Source: a virus
Taxonomy: Duplodnaviria > Caudoviricetes
DNA length: 38,311 nt
Virus record (IMG/VR): IMGVR_UViG_3300020045_018875
Span: 1 to 38,311 of that record
Reading direction: 5' to 3' (one strand)
This document shows, piece after piece, positions 25,602 to 37,987 of this stretch (position 1 is the first letter of the stretch; the number at the start of each line of letters is the position of its first letter). Under the pieces are notes generated by a model. It ran no database searches and was not told where the DNA came from. It was given only the letters and a program-made list of their open reading frames with translations. Both the position numbers and the translations under genes were made by a program.

Positions 25602-26276
25602 TTATTTTGGTTCATAAAATACTTTAAGCATATCACTCCTTGTCTTTTCTGGGTCGAGGCTCATTCCAGAAACCATAAAAAGTTCTTTTTGACATTGAAG
25701 AGGATTTCCACAAGCATCAGATTCCAATTTCTTTACAAACCATCCACTACCATTTCTTGAATAACATTCTTTAAAATCTTCAGCTATCATTTCAAATTCT
25801 TTCATAGCTATCGCATTTTCTTTATATTCTTTCTGAATGTGAGAAAATGAATGAATGTAACTTTTATAAGACTCTAATATCTTTCTTCTATTTTCAATAC
25901 GCTCAAACTCCGCCTCTCCTGAATATTTCTTTTCAACATGTTCTATTACTGCATCTGTTGCCCTTAGTGCAACAGGAACTGCTACTGCAATAGTTCCAGC
26001 CAATATTAAATTTTGAGGAAGATTTTGCATAAGCACTTGAGTCGCATGTGATCCAAAATTTTGCATTCCATTGGAAAGAATAGGTGTATTAGTATCTAAA
26101 GATTCCTTAATATTTTGACTAGTCTTCTCAATAGAATTTCCTATATTTTGAGAAGCAGGCTCTGCAAAATGCTTTCCAGCATCTGCACAATAGCCATCTT
26201 TTTGAGGTTTTTTATCAGGATAAGCCAAAGACATAAAAGATATAGTCATAGTAATCATCATCATCATTTTTTTCAT
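25602..26276 (-). CDS. Exported/membrane moron protein
   Basis: MKK plus hydrophobic signal-like N-terminus, central TM segment, coiled coil. Confidence 0.65.
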   Translation of the reverse strand: MKKMMMMITMTISFMSLAYPDKKPQKDGYCADAGKHFAEPASQNIGNSIEKTSQNIKESLDTNTPILSNGMQNFGSHATQVLMQNLPQNLILAGTIAVAVPVALRATDAVIEHVEKKYSGEAEFERIENRRKILESYKSYIHSFSHIQKEYKENAIAMKEFEMIAEDFKECYSRNGSGWFVKKLESDACGNPLQCQKELFMVSGMSLDPEKTRSDMLKVFYEPK

Positions 26277-26314
26277 ATAATTCCTTAATGCTTTTTAAAT
26301 TATTTTTAGTTTTC

Positions 26315-26767
26315 TTATTGTATTTTAGTTGTTTCTGAAACTATATTGTTATATAGTTTATAAAGCTTTTTCAGCAGAAAATACTCCATGCATACACGAA
26401 CAGCAATATGCTGCATTCTATCTAATTCATTACGATGAACGGTTAAAGTTGGGCATAAAGGCTCATTTATTGCTTTTTCAATATCTGTATTAGTATCCAA
26501 AGCATGAGCAATATACTGTTCAAGTCTATTAATTTCTAACCAAATCAAGTGCTTTTGTTCATTATCATAGCCATAGCCCAAGCAACTAAACAGCTCTGAT
26601 GCCTCTTCATTAATTTCATCGATAATCTTTTCTCTTCGATTGATCTCGTCTCTTAATAATTCAATCTTTTCAAATCTATTAAGCTGAGCCATTATCTCAA
26701 CATTTTCTGTTGATGTTTTTGCCATTAAAGGGCTCAAAGATAATAATGTTAACAATATATATTTCAT
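26315..26767 (-). CDS. Exported helical moron protein (start revised to MKYIL)
   Basis: MKYILLTLLSLSPLMA signal peptide; SD aaagga. Confidence 0.65.
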   Translation of the reverse strand: MKYILLTLLSLSPLMAKTSTENVEIMAQLNRFEKIELLRDEINRREKIIDEINEEASELFSCLGYGYDNEQKHLIWLEINRLEQYIAHALDTNTDIEKAINEPLCPTLTVHRNELDRMQHIAVRVCMEYFLLKKLYKLYNNIVSETTKIQ

Positions 26768-26869
26768 CTTTTTTTCCTTTTGTTCATCCACTCTTTGATT
26801 AAAGTTTTACCGAATGTTAAATATAGAATAAAGATACAGAATGGTATAATGAATTCTCCCGTTATCATA

Positions 26870-27352
26870 TTACACCGGCCCTGTTGCTACTGCACCGGCT
26901 AATCCACCACAAGCTGCTCCTACCATTGAAGCCGCTTCAATTGGTGCAGCAAACTGAGCGCTCAAGGACATGCTAACAACAGGATAAAGAGGGCCTGTAG
27001 CCAATGATACAACATGAATAGTGCCATAGCCAACAGCATATACTGCGCCTTTTCCAACCCAGAATCCTATAACGCCACCCCAATAGCCACCACCATTAAC
27101 CCTTCCTTTGATATCCATAGAATATCCATCAGAACATTCTTTGATATCTAAGTAAGCATTACCAGAATTAAGTATGGCAGCAAGCTTAGTCGTATCCATT
27201 GATCGTAACTGTTTGCTTACCATATAGTTTGGTATATCGGCGTTGAATTCTTTTGATGATATATTGTAATGAGATGGGAACTTTTGAATTGCTAATTGGC
27301 CAGCATTAATAGCTGAACAGAGAGAGAGTAAAATAATAATGATTCTTTTCAT
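26870..27352 (-). CDS. Exported protein with GG motif and Gly-zipper hydrophobic tail
   Basis: MKRIIIILLSLCSAINA signal; ..KGRVNGG|GYWGGVIG...GAACGGLAGAVA. Confidence 0.65.
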   Translation of the reverse strand: MKRIIIILLSLCSAINAGQLAIQKFPSHYNISSKEFNADIPNYMVSKQLRSMDTTKLAAILNSGNAYLDIKECSDGYSMDIKGRVNGGGYWGGVIGFWVGKGAVYAVGYGTIHVVSLATGPLYPVVSMSLSAQFAAPIEAASMVGAACGGLAGAVATGPV

Positions 27353-27843: not shown

Positions 27844-30000
27844 CTATATACCTTGAAGCGCTGATAATTGATTATCTTGCATCGTCGGCTCTATATTCTG
27901 CTCTCCTGTTTGTGGCATTGAACCTTTTAATGGTTGTCCAGCAGCAGCGGCTTGATGTTTCAAAGCGCTTGAAACAAGATTCTGTACTGCTGAGGGATGC
28001 GGGGTTGGTACATTAGCCGATTCTTGCTCCTCTTGTCTAACCATACGGGAAAGCGAAATAATCTTTTCTAACTGTTCTAAATCTACTGATTCAATCTCTT
28101 TCATAGCCTGAACAAGATGCAATAACCCAAGTTCTCTATCTTTAATAGCTTCAGCTTTACGTTCAACAGCAAGCTCATGGTTCTCTTCAATGCGAGATAG
28201 ACGTTCAAGTCCAAGCCCTTCATTAGCAGCAGCTTGTGCATTGACCAATTTAGCTTGAGCAGCCATATTTTCAGCCTCAAGTTCAAGCTGTCTTTGTTGT
28301 TCTTGTTGAGCTTGTTGATTCTGTTGCTCAATAGCCTCAATAAGTTTCTTCTTATCTTGTAATGTAGCTGCTTCAATAATAACAGAATCAGGAATAGGAA
28401 TGCCCATCTCTTTAAGATGCATAAGCTGAGCAAATTGCATCTGCTTCTGCGTAGTAGTATTCATACCCTCTTCAATAGCAGCATCATAACGACCAAATGT
28501 CTTATTATAAAACTGGTCAGTTGGCTCTTCACCGATGATTCTTTTGATTTTGCCAGGAACAAAATTATTCTGTACTATCTTCAATATGATCTTACCTAAA
28601 GTCTTTTGTGTAAAATCTAATTGATCGAATAACATCTGTAAGGTTGTAAGTCCAGCGCCTTGTCTAAGCATGGAAAGTATACCAGCTTTGTCATCATTCG
28701 CACTACCGAGCAGTTCCTCATTCACTCCCGATATCTCAGATATCTCTTTTCCTAAAAGTTCTGAAATCTGAATCATCGACGGTGGTATTTGAGCTGGTTG
28801 TATCTTCTCAACATCTGACATAGAAGCTTCTTCTTTAAGCACAAGAACTCTTCCTTGTCCTTCCATAAAGGCATGCTCTGGATTGACCAATGCGTTCTCT
28901 TTCATCTTGATTCCGCTATTGACCTGACTTTCCAAAAGGTCTAATTCCAACGTCCTTCTACGGTTATATAAATACTGACTGTCACGCAAAGCTCTTACAA
29001 TTCCTTGGCAACGATACTGAAAATAAGGGAGATCTGGGTAGTAATAACAGAGCGTAGGTACAAAAGGGTAACAATCTATGCCCGCCGGTTGCGGTCCGTC
29101 GTACATGACCTTACCCTGTACAACGATAGCAAGTTTAACGGTAGCAATATCCTGTTTAATAATAGTAAGTTGTGGATATTGTTTAAGAAATCTTTGTAGC
29201 CCCTCTTCATCATTAGATTTCCATTCTGTTGATTCACCCGTTTGCGTATCTATGAGCATGCGAGCCACTCTATAATCTTTATAATAGTATTCATCATAAG
29301 ACATAAGATTGGAGATGCTATAATTGTATTGTTCTGGAATGAATTGGAATTTGCCATCTCTTTGATTTAGAGGCGTTAGAGACATAATCTCTTCTTCATG
29401 ATCTGGCATTAAAGCTATAACATCACGCTTGGTTAAATAGTTACGTTTCCAAATGTAGTTACAATCGGATAGATCATGCTTCTTAAAGAACGGATCTATG
29501 ATGAATGTATTATAGTTACAGTTATCAACTTTGATATCACCAGATATAGGATCATTTCTATAATCTACCCATACCTGTAAGAGATTCATTCCTGTTATTA
29601 ATGCACCATCAAAGGACTGCGATATTGTATCATAGATGTTCTCTGTATTATTGAGCCACGACATGACTTTGGTGAATTGATCTGCTGTCTCATCATCGCC
29701 GTTCTCTATAGGAACTACGATAGTAGATTTTCTATTACGTCGTTGATGGCCACCAATCATATTTTTTATACGAAGAATTCTATTAAAAAAGAACTGTTTC
29801 TTACCATTAAATGGCACATTACCATAAATATTTTGCCATAATGCTTGATCACCAGCAAGATAACGATAATCTAAATCTGCTTCACCCCAAAAAGCTTGTA
29901 GTATACTTATAGCTTGTGAATATGAAGCTTCCATCTTGGATAATATAGGCCTATCTTTCTCATCATAATATTGCGGACCAAGAACTGGAAAAATTGGCAT
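27844..30000 (-). CDS. Portal protein, P22-type
   Basis: D..Y..GDQ, N.I....N...G.QR.NR, YPFVP, G.VR.L.D.Q...N.RR, ..ISGV motifs; Gln-rich coiled-coil tail. Confidence 0.88.
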   Translation of the reverse strand: MPIFPVLGPQYYDEKDRPILSKMEASYSQAISILQAFWGEADLDYRYLAGDQALWQNIYGNVPFNGKKQFFFNRILRIKNMIGGHQRRNRKSTIVVPIENGDDETADQFTKVMSWLNNTENIYDTISQSFDGALITGMNLLQVWVDYRNDPISGDIKVDNCNYNTFIIDPFFKKHDLSDCNYIWKRNYLTKRDVIALMPDHEEEIMSLTPLNQRDGKFQFIPEQYNYSISNLMSYDEYYYKDYRVARMLIDTQTGESTEWKSNDEEGLQRFLKQYPQLTIIKQDIATVKLAIVVQGKVMYDGPQPAGIDCYPFVPTLCYYYPDLPYFQYRCQGIVRALRDSQYLYNRRRTLELDLLESQVNSGIKMKENALVNPEHAFMEGQGRVLVLKEEASMSDVEKIQPAQIPPSMIQISELLGKEISEISGVNEELLGSANDDKAGILSMLRQGAGLTTLQMLFDQLDFTQKTLGKIILKIVQNNFVPGKIKRIIGEEPTDQFYNKTFGRYDAAIEEGMNTTTQKQMQFAQLMHLKEMGIPIPDSVIIEAATLQDKKKLIEAIEQQNQQAQQEQQRQLELEAENMAAQAKLVNAQAAANEGLGLERLSRIEENHELAVERKAEAIKDRELGLLHLVQAMKEIESVDLEQLEKIISLSRMVRQEEQESANVPTPHPSAVQNLVSSALKHQAAAAGQPLKGSMPQTGEQNIEPTMQDNQLSALQGI

Positions 30001-30142: not shown

Positions 30143-30218
30143 GCCCTCTTCGTCTAACGGTTAGGACACTGCCCTTTCACGGCAAAAATAACGGGTTCGA
30201 TTCCCTTAGAGGGCGCCA
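30143..30218 (+). tRNA. tRNA-Glu (TTC), with encoded CCA
   Basis: Acceptor gccctct/agagggc, D arm cgtc...gac, loop CT-TTC-AC, GGTTCGATTCC T arm; one mismatch each in anticodon and T stems. Confidence 0.88.
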
Positions 30219-30253: not shown

Positions 30254-30724
30254 TTAAAGTATCTTTTTGAGTTGTTCTTGAGTTAGAAATAGACATGTAC
30301 TATGAATAAATCCATACACTAATGCATTGAGTATATCTGAGTCAGTATAAATATATTTTGATAATCCAAAACGATCTGCAGTATTCCATAAAGCTGATAA
30401 AGCTAAGGATACACCAGAACTGGTTGAGGCCTCTTTAATATCATTGTTTAAAAGAAAATCATGGGCTCCATGATAAATAGCACGATCAACATCAGATGCT
30501 TTTACAATACTATTATTGATCACTTTACTATCTTTAATATATCCAGGAAGTTTTTCAACAACAGATATGTTTTTGCTTGTGTAGAATGCTAATGCAGCTC
30601 TTCCTGAAGTGTCTCTTGTAATAAAATGATAAAGTTTGATAGTGTCTTGAGCTATAAGATTATTATCCATAGTGTGTACACTAAAAACCAATAATAATAA
30701 GGCTAATAAAGAGATTTTAAACAT
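30254..30724 (-). CDS. Exported/membrane protein (start revised to MFKIS)
   Basis: MFKISLLALLLLVFSVHT signal; hydrophobic C-terminal helices; SD aagga. Confidence 0.6.
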   Translation of the reverse strand: MFKISLLALLLLVFSVHTMDNNLIAQDTIKLYHFITRDTSGRAALAFYTSKNISVVEKLPGYIKDSKVINNSIVKASDVDRAIYHGAHDFLLNNDIKEASTSSGVSLALSALWNTADRFGLSKYIYTDSDILNALVYGFIHSTCLFLTQEQLKKIL

Positions 30725-30794
30725 AGCTCTTCCTTTTATAAAAGATTGATAATTCCTATAAAGTGATATCATGATTCCAAATATAGTTCAATGA

Positions 30795-32357
30795 TTATAT
30801 CTTCTTTTTAAGTATCGATATTTTTTGTTCAATACCTCGATACATTAAAGCTTCTTTGATGTGATCAGGTAAGATATTATCTTCTCCTGCAATATCAGCA
30901 ATAGTACGAGCAACTTTAATTATTTTATGATAACTACGCATGCTCATATCAAACTTTTCAAAGCATGTATCTAATAGAGTTCGTGCTGTATCAGTTAAAG
31001 GACAATAGGTAGAAAGCTCAGATGGAGTTAAATAAGCGTTAACTTTATCTTGCGAACCATATCGTTCCTGTTGTTTTTGACGTGCTTTTATGACACCTTC
31101 TTTTAAAACAGTAGAGCTTAAATCACTTCCTGGATTATGCAATTCAGATATGTCTACACTTTGAACAAATATCTGGAGATCTATCCGATCTAAAAATGGT
31201 CCCGATATTTTGCGTAAATAGTTATAAATATGAATCGGAAAGCATTCACATTTCTTTTTATTATTGCCTACATTACCACAAGGACATGGGTTTAAAGCAC
31301 AAATAAGCATAAATGAACAAGGAAATGTTACTGATCCTTTAGAACGAGCAATCGTAATCTGTCTTTGCTCAATAGGATTTCTTAAAGATTCAATAGCTCC
31401 TCTGCTAAACTCAGCAAGTTCATCAAGAAACAGAACTCCATTATGAGCTAATGACGCTTCACCAGGTCGTATCATAGTATGTCCACCACCAACTAAACCA
31501 GACTCTGATGTTGAATAATGTGGGTTTCTAAATGGCCTATCTTTTATAAAATGAGAGACTGTTGATATCGCTGAATGTATACGATTAACTTCAAGAATCT
31601 CATTAGCTGACATAGGAGGCAATATACTTGGCAATGCACTAGCAAGCATAGTCTTACCTGACCCAGGAGGGCCCATTAAAATACAGTTATGGCTTCCAGC
31701 TGCAGCTATTTGAAGCATGCGCTTTGCCATTTTCTGTCCAGAAATATTAGCAAAATCTAAAAGTACAGGATCTTTTTGTTCAGGAGCTACAATTGAAGAT
31801 AGCGTAACTCTTTTAGTCTGTGTAAATAGAATAAAGTCCTGGATAGAGTGGACTGGAATTATGGTAATATCTGGAATATTAGTAAGTGCATTAACATAAT
31901 TTTTAGCAGGAATAACTATATTTTTGATACCAAATTTGTGAGCATCTAATGCTACACCCATAATGCCTGTGACAGGATTAATAGTACCATCAAATGAAAG
32001 CTCGCCCATGATAACCGTCTCTTTAGTAAATGTACTGTTAAGACGTATCATACTGAAATGTGCCAAGATAGCAGTAGCAATTGGTAAATCGAACTGAGAA
32101 CCGACCTTATTGAGCGTGGCTGGCGCAAGATTTACCACTATTCTCATTCCCTTTAGGTTAATACCTAAAACGCTCAAAACTGCGGTAATTCGTTTTTTAC
32201 TTTCTTGGACTGCACGATCAACCATACCAACTATATTAAATATAAAGCTTTTTCCATTAAACTGATCTGTAGATATCTCAACAGTAATAAGATGCGTCTC
32301 TATACCGACAATAATAGCTGATAAAACTTTGGTAATATTAGAATTTTTATACTTCAT
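30795..32357 (-). CDS. comM: ComM/YifB Mg-chelatase-like AAA+ helicase (start probably MKYKN at 32357)
   Basis: Lon-like N-domain (VNLAPA.L.K.GS.FDLPIA), Walker A GPPGSGKT, RPFR.PH, PGEASLAHNGVLFLDE, NPCPCG..C.C, SGP.LDRID, ARTIAD. Confidence 0.93.
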   Translation of the reverse strand: MKYKNSNITKVLSAIIVGIETHLITVEISTDQFNGKSFIFNIVGMVDRAVQESKKRITAVLSVLGINLKGMRIVVNLAPATLNKVGSQFDLPIATAILAHFSMIRLNSTFTKETVIMGELSFDGTINPVTGIMGVALDAHKFGIKNIVIPAKNYVNALTNIPDITIIPVHSIQDFILFTQTKRVTLSSIVAPEQKDPVLLDFANISGQKMAKRMLQIAAAGSHNCILMGPPGSGKTMLASALPSILPPMSANEILEVNRIHSAISTVSHFIKDRPFRNPHYSTSESGLVGGGHTMIRPGEASLAHNGVLFLDELAEFSRGAIESLRNPIEQRQITIARSKGSVTFPCSFMLICALNPCPCGNVGNNKKKCECFPIHIYNYLRKISGPFLDRIDLQIFVQSVDISELHNPGSDLSSTVLKEGVIKARQKQQERYGSQDKVNAYLTPSELSTYCPLTDTARTLLDTCFEKFDMSMRSYHKIIKVARTIADIAGEDNILPDHIKEALMYRGIEQKISILKKKI

Positions 32358-32380
32358 AGAATACAAGCATAACATGCATT

Positions 32381-32400
32381 GCATTTATTGCAATAAATGC
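32381..32400. promoter_or_regulatory. Perfect 20-bp palindrome in divergent promoter region
   Basis: gcatttattg|caataaatgc; overlaps TTGCAT (32379-84) and fills the spacer to TATCAT (32401-06). Confidence 0.7.
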
Positions 32401-32413
32401 TATCATATATTGT

Positions 32414-33370
32414 ATGAAGAGCGAAAATGTAAAAATCGGATTATTAAATAAAGTGCTACAAGGCAAGCATGTAACCAATGCTCCTATCGGATATGACCAT
32501 ACTATTATTAATGGTCAATCATTTATTGCTCCAGATGCTCGTGCTCCTATGATCAAAGAGACTTTTAAGCGTTATGCATATGAAAAAATAAGCATTAATG
32601 CCTTAAGCATGGATATGGAAAAAAAATACGGATTTCCTCTTGCACGTTCTACTTTACATAAAGCATTAAAGAATCCATTTTATTACGGCAAAATGGTTTA
32701 CAAAGGCCAGCTGTATGACCATAATTATGAACCTCTTATATCTGAAGAACTGTTTAATGATGTTCAACAAAAAATAGGTAGCAGATCTTGCAATAGGGGA
32801 GCAAAAAAAGGATTCTTATTGCCATTTTTATATCGTAAACTTATAACATGTGGTCAATGTGGTGCAGTTCTTTCAGGTGACCTAAAAAAAGGACGCTATA
32901 CCTACTATCGCTGCACAACAAAACATGGCTATCCTGCAATAAAAGAGGAAGTAATCACTGCAGCTCTAAAGCCATTATTTACATTGTATGGCATAAAAGA
33001 AGATATCTTTGAAGATCCACATCGTATGACCTTATGCTTTAACATGTTTATAGAATCTTGCTTTGTTAACTCTGAGGGTAAGATAGAAGTTAAGATTAAG
33101 ACTCATATTAGTCCATCAAGTCATGCTTACATTGCCGATTATATTAACAATAAAAATATGATTGTACTGCAAAAGTCACCTGAAGCATTGCATGCTGTTA
33201 AAGAGGCTATTGCTGATCCGATATTACAATATTGCATGCAACCAAAAAGTATTGACGAGATCGCTGAACATCTTGCTATTGAAATAACTGAAGCACAAAC
33301 TAAGGTATTAGATCTTTACCTAGAAAATTCATTAGAAGAAACGGAAGATAGTAGATGGAGAACGGTATAA
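32414..33370 (+). CDS. Large-serine-recombinase DNA-binding modules (recombinase domain + zinc ribbon, no catalytic domain) fused to DprA-like winged helix
   Basis: Starts at SENVK.G...K...G.....AP.GY; L.NP.Y.G, EPLIS.ELF..VQ, CGQCG...YYRC; C-terminal IL.YC..PKSIDEI...L...........LDL.LE......SRW. Confidence 0.75.
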   Translation: MKSENVKIGLLNKVLQGKHVTNAPIGYDHTIINGQSFIAPDARAPMIKETFKRYAYEKISINALSMDMEKKYGFPLARSTLHKALKNPFYYGKMVYKGQLYDHNYEPLISEELFNDVQQKIGSRSCNRGAKKGFLLPFLYRKLITCGQCGAVLSGDLKKGRYTYYRCTTKHGYPAIKEEVITAALKPLFTLYGIKEDIFEDPHRMTLCFNMFIESCFVNSEGKIEVKIKTHISPSSHAYIADYINNKNMIVLQKSPEALHAVKEAIADPILQYCMQPKSIDEIAEHLAIEITEAQTKVLDLYLENSLEETEDSRWRTV

Positions 33371-33555
33371 AGAAACAGATAAGTATAAGAATAGATCAGG
33401 AACTTCTTGAAAGAATGAAGGATATGGTCTATTGGAATCCTGGATGGACTTTAAATGATCTCATCGAAATAACTCTTAGAGAAACAATATATAGTATGGA
33501 AAAGTGCGAGAAAAGACCTCAAAAAAATCTAAAACCCGGTAGAAAAGTTACCTAA
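33355..33555 (+). CDS. RHH/Arc-like DNA-binding protein
   Basis: KKQISIRID.ELLERMK...Y......LNDLIE..LR. Confidence 0.7.
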   Translation: MENGIKKQISIRIDQELLERMKDMVYWNPGWTLNDLIEITLRETIYSMEKCEKRPQKNLKPGRKVT

Positions 33556-37168: not shown

Positions 37169-37987
37169 TCAGTATTGTTCATATCCTTCAGGTCTTTCTT
37201 TCTCAGTTGTACGTAATACTTGTGCTAATTCTTGTTGATTAGCTTGATTAAATGTACTCAAAAAGTCTTTTATTGCAATAGGTTCATGTCCTGCATAAGG
37301 ATTTGGCACGCCATTTTTCTGATAATAGGTTCCAGATCTGTCCCTTTGGTATTTGGACGCGAAAGGTCCTGTGGCATGAACAAAACTTCGCGCCACATTT
37401 TCAGGTTTTAAGAGATTTTTTTCAGACGGAGGACTTGTATTAGTGAAAGAAGATATAGATTCATCCATTTTTTGAATAGTTTTTATCTCTTCTTTCTTAA
37501 GATCTTTATAATTTAATTCATTAAAGAATCTATGGTTACGATCAGTCTGCAGATCAATTAAACAGAAGAAAGAAAACGTTACTGCTTTTAGCCAAGAAAA
37601 CAAAGAACACATATAAAATTGCATCTCTGGACTTCTTAAAACTCCAGTCAACTTATAGTGAACCGCTTTCTTCCAACCAGGATACGTTTTAACTATATAA
37701 CCTTGGTTCTCAAGATCAGATAAAAGAAAAGAGATATAAGTATCAGATGCTTTTAGATAATCAGACATATAACGAAGGCTCATACGAATAGACATGCCAC
37801 GAGAAGTTAAAGAAACAAACATTTGAATAAGACGGAACCGAAGACCTTCTTGCTTACCTTTGCCATGATCACGCCAATAACATAACTTCTCATATCTTTC
37901 CACAGGCGAACACACCTTGAAAAGATATTTTATTTTTCTTCGATTTTTCTTGACTTTATTTTTTTTGTTTGTTATTCTATTATTCAT
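37169..37987 (-). CDS. Winged-helix protein, possible replication initiator
   Basis: SLRYMSDYL..S...IS..L.DLE.QGYI.K wHTH; first gene of the leftward operon before rusA. Confidence 0.5.
   Translation of the reverse strand: MNNRITNKKNKVKKNRRKIKYLFKVCSPVERYEKLCYWRDHGKGKQEGLRFRLIQMFVSLTSRGMSIRMSLRYMSDYLKASDTYISFLLSDLENQGYIVKTYPGWKKAVHYKLTGVLRSPEMQFYMCSLFSWLKAVTFSFFCLIDLQTDRNHRFFNELNYKDLKKEEIKTIQKMDESISSFTNTSPPSEKNLLKPENVARSFVHATGPFASKYQRDRSGTYYQKNGVPNPYAGHEPIAIKDFLSTFNQANQQELAQVLRTTEKERPEGYEQY

What the first reader, a model, noticed from the sequence alone, without database searches (positions are those of the whole stretch)
32414..33100. Serine integrase stripped of both catalytic domain and coiled coil but kept in frame
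Seen: the ORF starts at the end of the helix-E-like segment (SENVK.GL..K..QG). Upstream is comM on the other strand, so there is no room for a catalytic domain, and I saw none elsewhere. Only ~25 aa separate IKEEVI from FIESCFV..EGKIEV, where integrases normally carry a long coiled coil. Established: catalysis and synapsis need these two parts, while att half-site binding uses the retained ones. Inference: two clean in-frame deletions look like repurposing as a pure DNA binder, not decay. It could also block att sites of rival comM-targeting elements.
Basis: partly seen in the sequence, partly recalled or inferred. Interest (0 to 1): 0.75.

Follow-up and report, generated by a model that had tools for sequence, protein, structure and literature searches.

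The report
Phage-borne ComM helicase with integrase-derived adaptor
A phage that likely infects Babeliae bacteria carries its own gene for the recombination helicase ComM beside a conserved protein that joins an integrase's DNA-binding domains to a copy of the tail of the host protein DprA, and this protein likely grips double-stranded DNA and loads the helicase there.

Summary
The ORF runs to 33370 (318 aa) and ends in a winged helix that matches the C-terminal domain of host DprA (E 9.7e-12). In Vibrio and Helicobacter that domain binds and recruits ComM. The adjacent comM is intact and phage-borne, in a circular 38-kb genome. Independent contigs bridge the junction, and dN/dS is 0.11. Among 198 retrieved proteins, 63 carry this tail and none of them has a catalytic domain; none of the 115 with a catalytic domain has the tail. 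Heads vary: recombinase plus zinc ribbon, one to four tandem recombinase domains, or nuclease-less zinc repeats. In 28 related phage records, comM and adaptor occur together (4) or not at all (24), so the cassette is accessory. The parent integrases sit at tRNA genes, not comM. Best reading (0.7): a re-targeted DprA-type ComM loader acting on double-stranded DNA, most likely aiding phage recombination across heterology. My ten paper searches found no description.

The parts
32414..33370 (+). Adaptor gene, 318 aa: integrase DNA-binding head fused to a DprA-type winged helix
32459..32782 (+). Recombinase domain (about residues 16-123), preceded by a short helix-E remnant
   Evidence: model
32825..33103 (+). 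Zinc-ribbon domain (about residues 138-230) with about 105 aa of coiled coil missing
33209..33367 (+). Acidic winged helix (residues 266-318) of the host DprA C-terminal type; predicted ComM-binding domain
30795..32357 (-). Intact phage-borne comM (520 aa from the ATG at 32357; longest ORF starts at 32384), Walker A/B and Cys motifs kept
32358..32413 (.). 56-bp divergent intergenic region with a perfect 20-bp palindrome at 32381-32400, the longest in the genome; one mismatch in L001
   Evidence: 2 of 30 shuffled genomes hold one as long
33355..33555 (+). 66-aa gene overlapping the adaptor stop; likely a small ribbon-helix-helix regulator (label recalled; Pfam BrnA_antitoxin weak, E 0.0066). 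Also follows the adaptor in L001, L083, L086
30143..30218 (+). tRNA-Glu(TTC) in the same accessory slot; link to the cassette not shown
30254..30772 (-). 172-aa unknown gene in the same slot, found only here and in L001
33548..34918 (-). Terminase large subunit, one flank of the slot
   Evidence: (weak Pfam)
27844..30000 (-). P22-like portal, other flank of the slot

Best explanation
The gene encodes a catalytically dead integrase head fused to a DprA-type winged helix, and this protein likely binds double-stranded DNA through the head and likely recruits the phage's own ComM helicase through the tail. Shown: the architecture, its conservation, the tail's origin in host DprA, and strict co-occurrence with an intact phage comM. 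From the literature: the DprA winged helix binds ComM and is needed to recruit it, and the pairing is species-specific, which would explain why the phage carries both. Inferred: the head replaces DprA's single-strand-binding core, so ComM is aimed at duplex DNA instead of incoming transforming DNA. Least certain is the purpose. My first choice (about 0.35 overall) is branch migration during the phage's own ERF/RecA-started recombination, including across heterologous stretches. The target sequence is unknown.
For: Tail: a profile built only from 31 host DprA C-termini scores P0001 residues 260-308 at E 9.7e-12 (Z=1000), hits 62 of 63 tail-bearing proteins and 0 of 115 catalytic integrases. The phage-tail profile hits 221 of 251 genomes of the putative host phylum; the 30 loci fetched plus L225 are all DprA. 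Pfam DprA_WH in 10 of 37 members, best 5.5e-8; PDB DprA 3MAJ residues 340-374, E 0.0077; winged-helix fold for 253-318. The tail is acidic in 62 of 63 (here -8) like host DprA tails (30 of 31), while heads are basic. Linkage: comM is adjacent in 9 of 9 adaptor loci with flanking DNA (window, L001, L081, L083, L085, L086, L092, L094, L095), in two orientations and several genome positions. Both or neither in 28 of 28 phage records. Heads are swapped while the tail stays. dN/dS: whole gene 0.114, tail 0.088, comM 0.076. bioRxiv 10.1101/2024.10.21.619469, parts 1-4 of 6 read.
Against: No binding, DNA target or activity was measured. The window's own tail has no Pfam DprA_WH hit and has Tyr where most relatives and host DprA have Gln or Glu, at the position I infer to match the interface residue E353. 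Winged helices commonly bind DNA, and the fold search ranks transcription factors and Z-alpha domains at similar Z. Five of the nine loci were found through comM, so that adjacency count is partly by selection; the three found through the adaptor (L001, L081, L085) all have comM. The tails of L092 and L094 are weak (host profile E 0.037 and 2.5e-5; missed). Other viral comM genes have no such partner. dN/dS rests on one close pair. No repeated candidate site stood out.
Confidence: 0.7

Rival explanations
1. Same loader, different purpose: the head keeps an att-type specificity and brings ComM to tRNA-inserted integrative elements or host tRNA loci, to disrupt their integrase complexes or recombination intermediates. 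This is a conflict weapon and shares the molecular mechanism of the best explanation.
For: Parent integrases are common in host genomes and 10 of the 12 best lie at tRNA genes. The cassette is accessory (4 of 28), heads diversify, arrays of up to four recombinase domains occur, and two loci carry two adaptors.
Against: No target shown. Zinc-repeat heads have no att ancestry. The phage tRNA-Glu is not notably close to host att tRNAs.
Confidence: 0.25
2. Origin-specific loader of ComM as the phage's replicative helicase.
For: No DnaB in this genome; ComM has an MCM-type P-loop hit; the cassette lies near replication and recombination genes in several relatives.
Against: 24 of 28 related records have neither comM nor DnaB, so it is not required and does not replace a helicase. 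The putative initiator is only 24% identical between the window and L001 while the adaptor is 97% identical.
Confidence: 0.1
3. DNA-binding regulator or att blocker that does not touch ComM; the winged helix is an extra DNA-binding or passenger domain.
For: Divergent layout with a palindrome between the genes; winged helices often bind DNA.
Against: Acidic tail from DprA; the cited paper reports the H. pylori tail does not bind DNA; four loci have the genes on one strand; the 66-aa gene is a simpler regulator candidate.
Confidence: 0.12
4. Decoy that sequesters host ComM to block transformation.
For: The tail motif closely follows host DprA; mobile elements often inactivate comM (PMC11472951, passages seen).
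Against: The phage keeps its own ComM with intact ATPase motifs under purifying selection, and no adaptor without comM was found.
Confidence: 0.05
5. Decayed integrase or assembly chimera.
For: Catalytic domain and coiled coil are missing.
Against: Independent contigs bridge the junction; family of 52; dN/dS 0.114, Fisher p 8e-9.
Confidence: 0.01

Closest known systems
DprA-ComM unit of natural transformation (bioRxiv 10.1101/2024.10.21.619469)
   Same: DprA-type C-terminal winged helix paired with an intact ComM; cognate pair kept together.
   Different: Phage-borne; no DprA core; head comes from duplex-DNA-binding integrase or endonuclease-associated domains; one or two adaptors per locus.
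Large serine recombinases (solved examples 4KIS, 9IU2, 9DXD; tRNA-associated integrases of the putative host phylum)
   Same: Recombinase and zinc-ribbon domains align in sequence and fold.
   Different: No catalytic domain, no coiled coil, added winged helix; relatives have 1-4 tandem recombinase domains.
Mobile elements inserted in comM (PMC11472951)
   Same: An integrase-like gene next to comM, as in viral loci such as L096, L112, L125.
   Different: There comM is a broken host gene at the element's edge. Here it is whole, inside a circular phage genome, in a phage-specific clade.
Sequence-specific helicase loaders such as lambda O/P with DnaB (recalled)
   Same: A DNA-binding protein brings a ring helicase to a site.
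   Different: Unrelated proteins; essential for replication, whereas this cassette is accessory.

Membership tests
Large serine recombinase | N-terminal catalytic (Resolvase) domain | tested here: not met
Large serine recombinase | Recombinase domain | tested here: met
   Pfam E 2.7e-11; 37 of 37 members
Large serine recombinase | Zinc-ribbon domain | tested here: met
   Pfam E 7.2e-8; Cys pair nearly invariant
Large serine recombinase | Coiled coil within the zinc-ribbon domain | tested here: not met
   35 aa against 140 aa
Large serine recombinase | Cognate att site | tested here: inconclusive
   no candidate stood out
DprA | DNA_processg_A core | tested here: not met
   no Pfam hit in 37 members at E<=0.05
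DprA | C-terminal winged helix of the DprA type | tested here: met
   host-DprA profile E 9.7e-12; Pfam misses this copy but hits 10 of 37 relatives
DprA-ComM unit | Physical winged helix-ComM interaction | not tested
ComM/YifB | Full ChlI, Mg_chelatase, Mg_chelatase_C architecture with Walker A/B and Cys motifs | tested here: met
ComM/YifB | Helicase and branch-migration activity | not testable with these tools
   needs purified protein

The most novel reading that the evidence does not exclude
Babeliae phages have turned the host's transformation motor into a modular, re-targetable machine: dead DNA-recognition heads taken from integrases (in arrays of up to four domains) and from homing-endonuclease-like zinc repeats are swapped onto one ComM-loading tail, steering a ring helicase to chosen duplex sequences in rival elements, host DNA or co-infecting phages without cutting DNA.
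Probability: 0.3. Interest if true: 0.9.

Novelty: new variant of a known kind. Interest (0 to 1): 0.8.

Why it matters
ComM has been described as specific to natural transformation, with DprA loading as the proposed reason. A phage cassette that keeps the loading tail and swaps the DNA-binding part is a natural test of that model and suggests ComM can be aimed elsewhere. It also gives a use for integrase DNA-binding domains outside recombination, with natural tandem arrays that bear on how those domains read DNA. Mobile elements are known to break comM; these phages carry and conserve it.

Tried and rejected
Complex prediction of ComM (190-520) with the tail (258-318) was not available; nothing was folded, so binding is open. 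The cluster look-up for source names could not be made. The ESM Atlas gave only generic recombinase clusters, best 0.89. A sequence search of the PDB with the family alignment gave nothing useful. Genome-collection scan with the tail pattern: 119 pattern matches, none confirmed. No full-length adaptor stood out among the listed matches in 251 host-phylum genomes; the 12 best are catalytic integrases, 211 weaker matches were not listed. GenBank phages: only ordinary integrases matched the adaptor (15 of 89 rows seen); comM matched 31 records at under 60% (25 rows seen). The promoter scan listed no site in the intergenic region and fewer sites than shuffles. Repeat searches gave no convincing target. 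The tree of heads puts all 70 tail-bearing rows on one side against 60 of the full-length integrases but with weak support, so a single origin is not shown. Mapping Vibrio ComM L455/R497 onto this ComM was not done with the Vibrio sequence; R507 as the R497 equivalent is positional inference. Earlier findings of the scan: three look-ups, nothing. Small-share sequencing runs were not used. Supplements of the bioRxiv paper (alignments S3, S6) were not seen and bear on the residue mapping.

Full report
Setting. The window is a complete circular phage genome: a 121-bp terminal overlap, classed as direct terminal repeats, with a P22-like portal, capsid, ERF and RusA genes. The host is inferred. Named proteins among the 120 best ComM hits are from Babeliales, Babeliaceae, TM6 and Dependentiae. 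The genes of interest lie between terminase and portal, an interval that varies from 82 to 6,994 bp in the 73 relatives where both genes were on the locus.

The observation. The ORF is 32414-33370, 318 aa. Residues 3-201 match positions 143-343 of a profile of 8 host-phylum integrases (E 1.7e-42), and the span that holds the coiled coil is 35 aa against 140 aa. The model aligns residues 15-236 to four solved integrases at Z 8.6-10.8 with high rmsd. No catalytic domain was found in this genome or in 5 related records, and no tyrosine integrase in 5 records including this one. Contigs from runs X1 and X4 bridge the junction with comM, and L001 repeats the layout. Against L001, dN/dS is 0.114 for the gene, 0.079 for the recombinase domain, 0.165 for the zinc ribbon, 0.088 for the tail and 0.076 for comM. 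This is one close pair.

The last 53 residues form a winged helix. Pfam does not name it in this copy, but DprA_WH hits 10 of 37 family members. A profile of 11 phage tails matches 221 of 251 genomes in the phylum of the nearest chromosomal comM, nearly always once; all 31 loci examined are DprA C-termini. In reverse, a profile of those 31 host tails scores this protein at E 9.7e-12, 62 of 63 tail-bearing proteins, and none of 115 catalytic integrases. The host loci were picked with the phage profile, so the two tests are not fully independent. The tail is acidic in 62 of 63 proteins; the heads are basic.

Why that matters. In bioRxiv 10.1101/2024.10.21.619469 (parts 1-4 of 6 read, supplements not seen) the DprA winged helix binds the Mg-chelatase domain of ComM, is required to recruit it, is species-specific, and in H. 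pylori does not bind DNA. The hydrophobic positions I infer to match L350 and L354 are kept here (L299, L303); the E353 position is Tyr in this subfamily and Gln or Glu in most others. The mapping is by motif, not by alignment with the Vibrio protein.

The family. Of 198 proteins retrieved are recombinase-zinc ribbon-tail, 5 have two recombinase domains plus tail, one has three, one has four, 2 have one (one of these may be a fragment), and 2 have the tail behind Cys-rich repeats. Those repeats match an HNH-endonuclease family outside any detected nuclease domain. No protein has both catalytic domain and tail. The remaining 20 have heads only and may be fragments or other forms.

Linkage to comM. 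All 9 adaptor loci with flanking DNA have comM adjacent: divergent in the window, L001, L083 and L086, co-directional in L081, L085, L092, L094 and L095; L081 and L085 have two adaptors. L084 has no upstream DNA. Five of these loci were found through comM. Three more pairs share a contig length (P0003/P0200, P0005/P0202, P0006/P0207), which suggests the same contigs. I searched 28 records: 26 of the longest among 80 terminase loci plus L081 and L095, added because they carry the cassette. Four have comM, tail and recombinase domain; 24 have none; none has DnaB. Without the two added records the count is 2 with both and 24 with neither. The window's ComM falls in a 16-row clade (99) apart from chromosomal Babeliae ComM. 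An Arg near the ComM C-terminus (R507) is kept in all 7 tail-partnered ComMs shown and lost in L089 and 4 of 5 members of another viral clade, none with a detected tail partner; L090 keeps it without a clear partner.

Origin of the head. Full-length relatives are common in host-phylum genomes. Ten of the 12 best lie next to a tRNA gene, mostly abutting the 3' end on the other strand, and 28 of 93 long stored integrases end in a tRNA-like translation, against 0 of 63 adaptors. None of 79 viral loci of related integrases holds a comM piece. The parent family therefore likely targets tRNA genes.

Mechanism. The simplest reading is that the head tethers the protein to duplex DNA and the tail loads the cognate ComM (0.7). 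Loss of the catalytic domain and coiled coil removes cleavage and synapsis (established for this family; recalled). Exposed positions of the likely recognition helix vary widely, which fits differing targets. The cassette is accessory, so an essential replication role is unlikely (0.1). ComM helps recombination between heterologous DNA (PMC11472951, 12 passages seen), which suits a phage with ERF, RusA and variable accessory slots (about 0.35). Action against tRNA-inserted elements is the main rival (0.25). These purposes are inferences.

Novelty. Ten full-text searches (listings only, apart from the two papers named) found no account of a phage comM with such a partner. PHROGs gave no full-length family for this ComM, and the GenBank phage rows seen were ordinary integrases. 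The library lacks most subscription journals. The protein fails membership of both large serine recombinases and DprA; it likely works like the DprA-ComM unit with a new target. Verdict: new variant of a known kind, interest 0.8.

Noticed in passing
P0045 (573 aa), P0046 (501 aa): Four and three tandem recombinase domains before the tail: natural arrays of integrase DNA-binding domains. Genomic context not available.
   Followed up: partly
L085:270-2200: Two tandem genes after comM with Cys-rich repeat heads and the same DprA-type tail, no integrase domains.
   Followed up: partly
L089:6337-9236: A comM that nests among host-type copies, with a shortened C-terminus, overlapping a 453-aa zinc-repeat gene with an acidic N-terminus and no detected tail; possibly an independent capture.
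   Followed up: partly
L109, L111, L113, L115, L122: A separate long-branch clade of viral comM genes with altered C-termini, several beside SSB-like genes (label recalled), no adaptor seen. Host not determined.
   Followed up: no
L256-L267: Full-length serine integrases of the putative host phylum whose 3' ends abut or overlap tRNA genes on the opposite strand.
   Followed up: partly
window 30143-30218; L083:5253-5406; L095:19633-20632: tRNA-Glu(TTC) called in three cassette-bearing lineages; role unknown.
   Followed up: partly
window 37169-37987 and L001:12655-13401: The putative replication initiator differs (24% identity) between two otherwise 94-98% identical phages.
   Followed up: no
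G053:C2:46892-47984 (L361): A host genome with extra matches to the dprA tail just downstream of dprA, between short cargo genes.
   Followed up: partly
window 25602-27352: Three accessory genes with signal-peptide-like starts and no Pfam hit, downstream of the portal.
   Followed up: no
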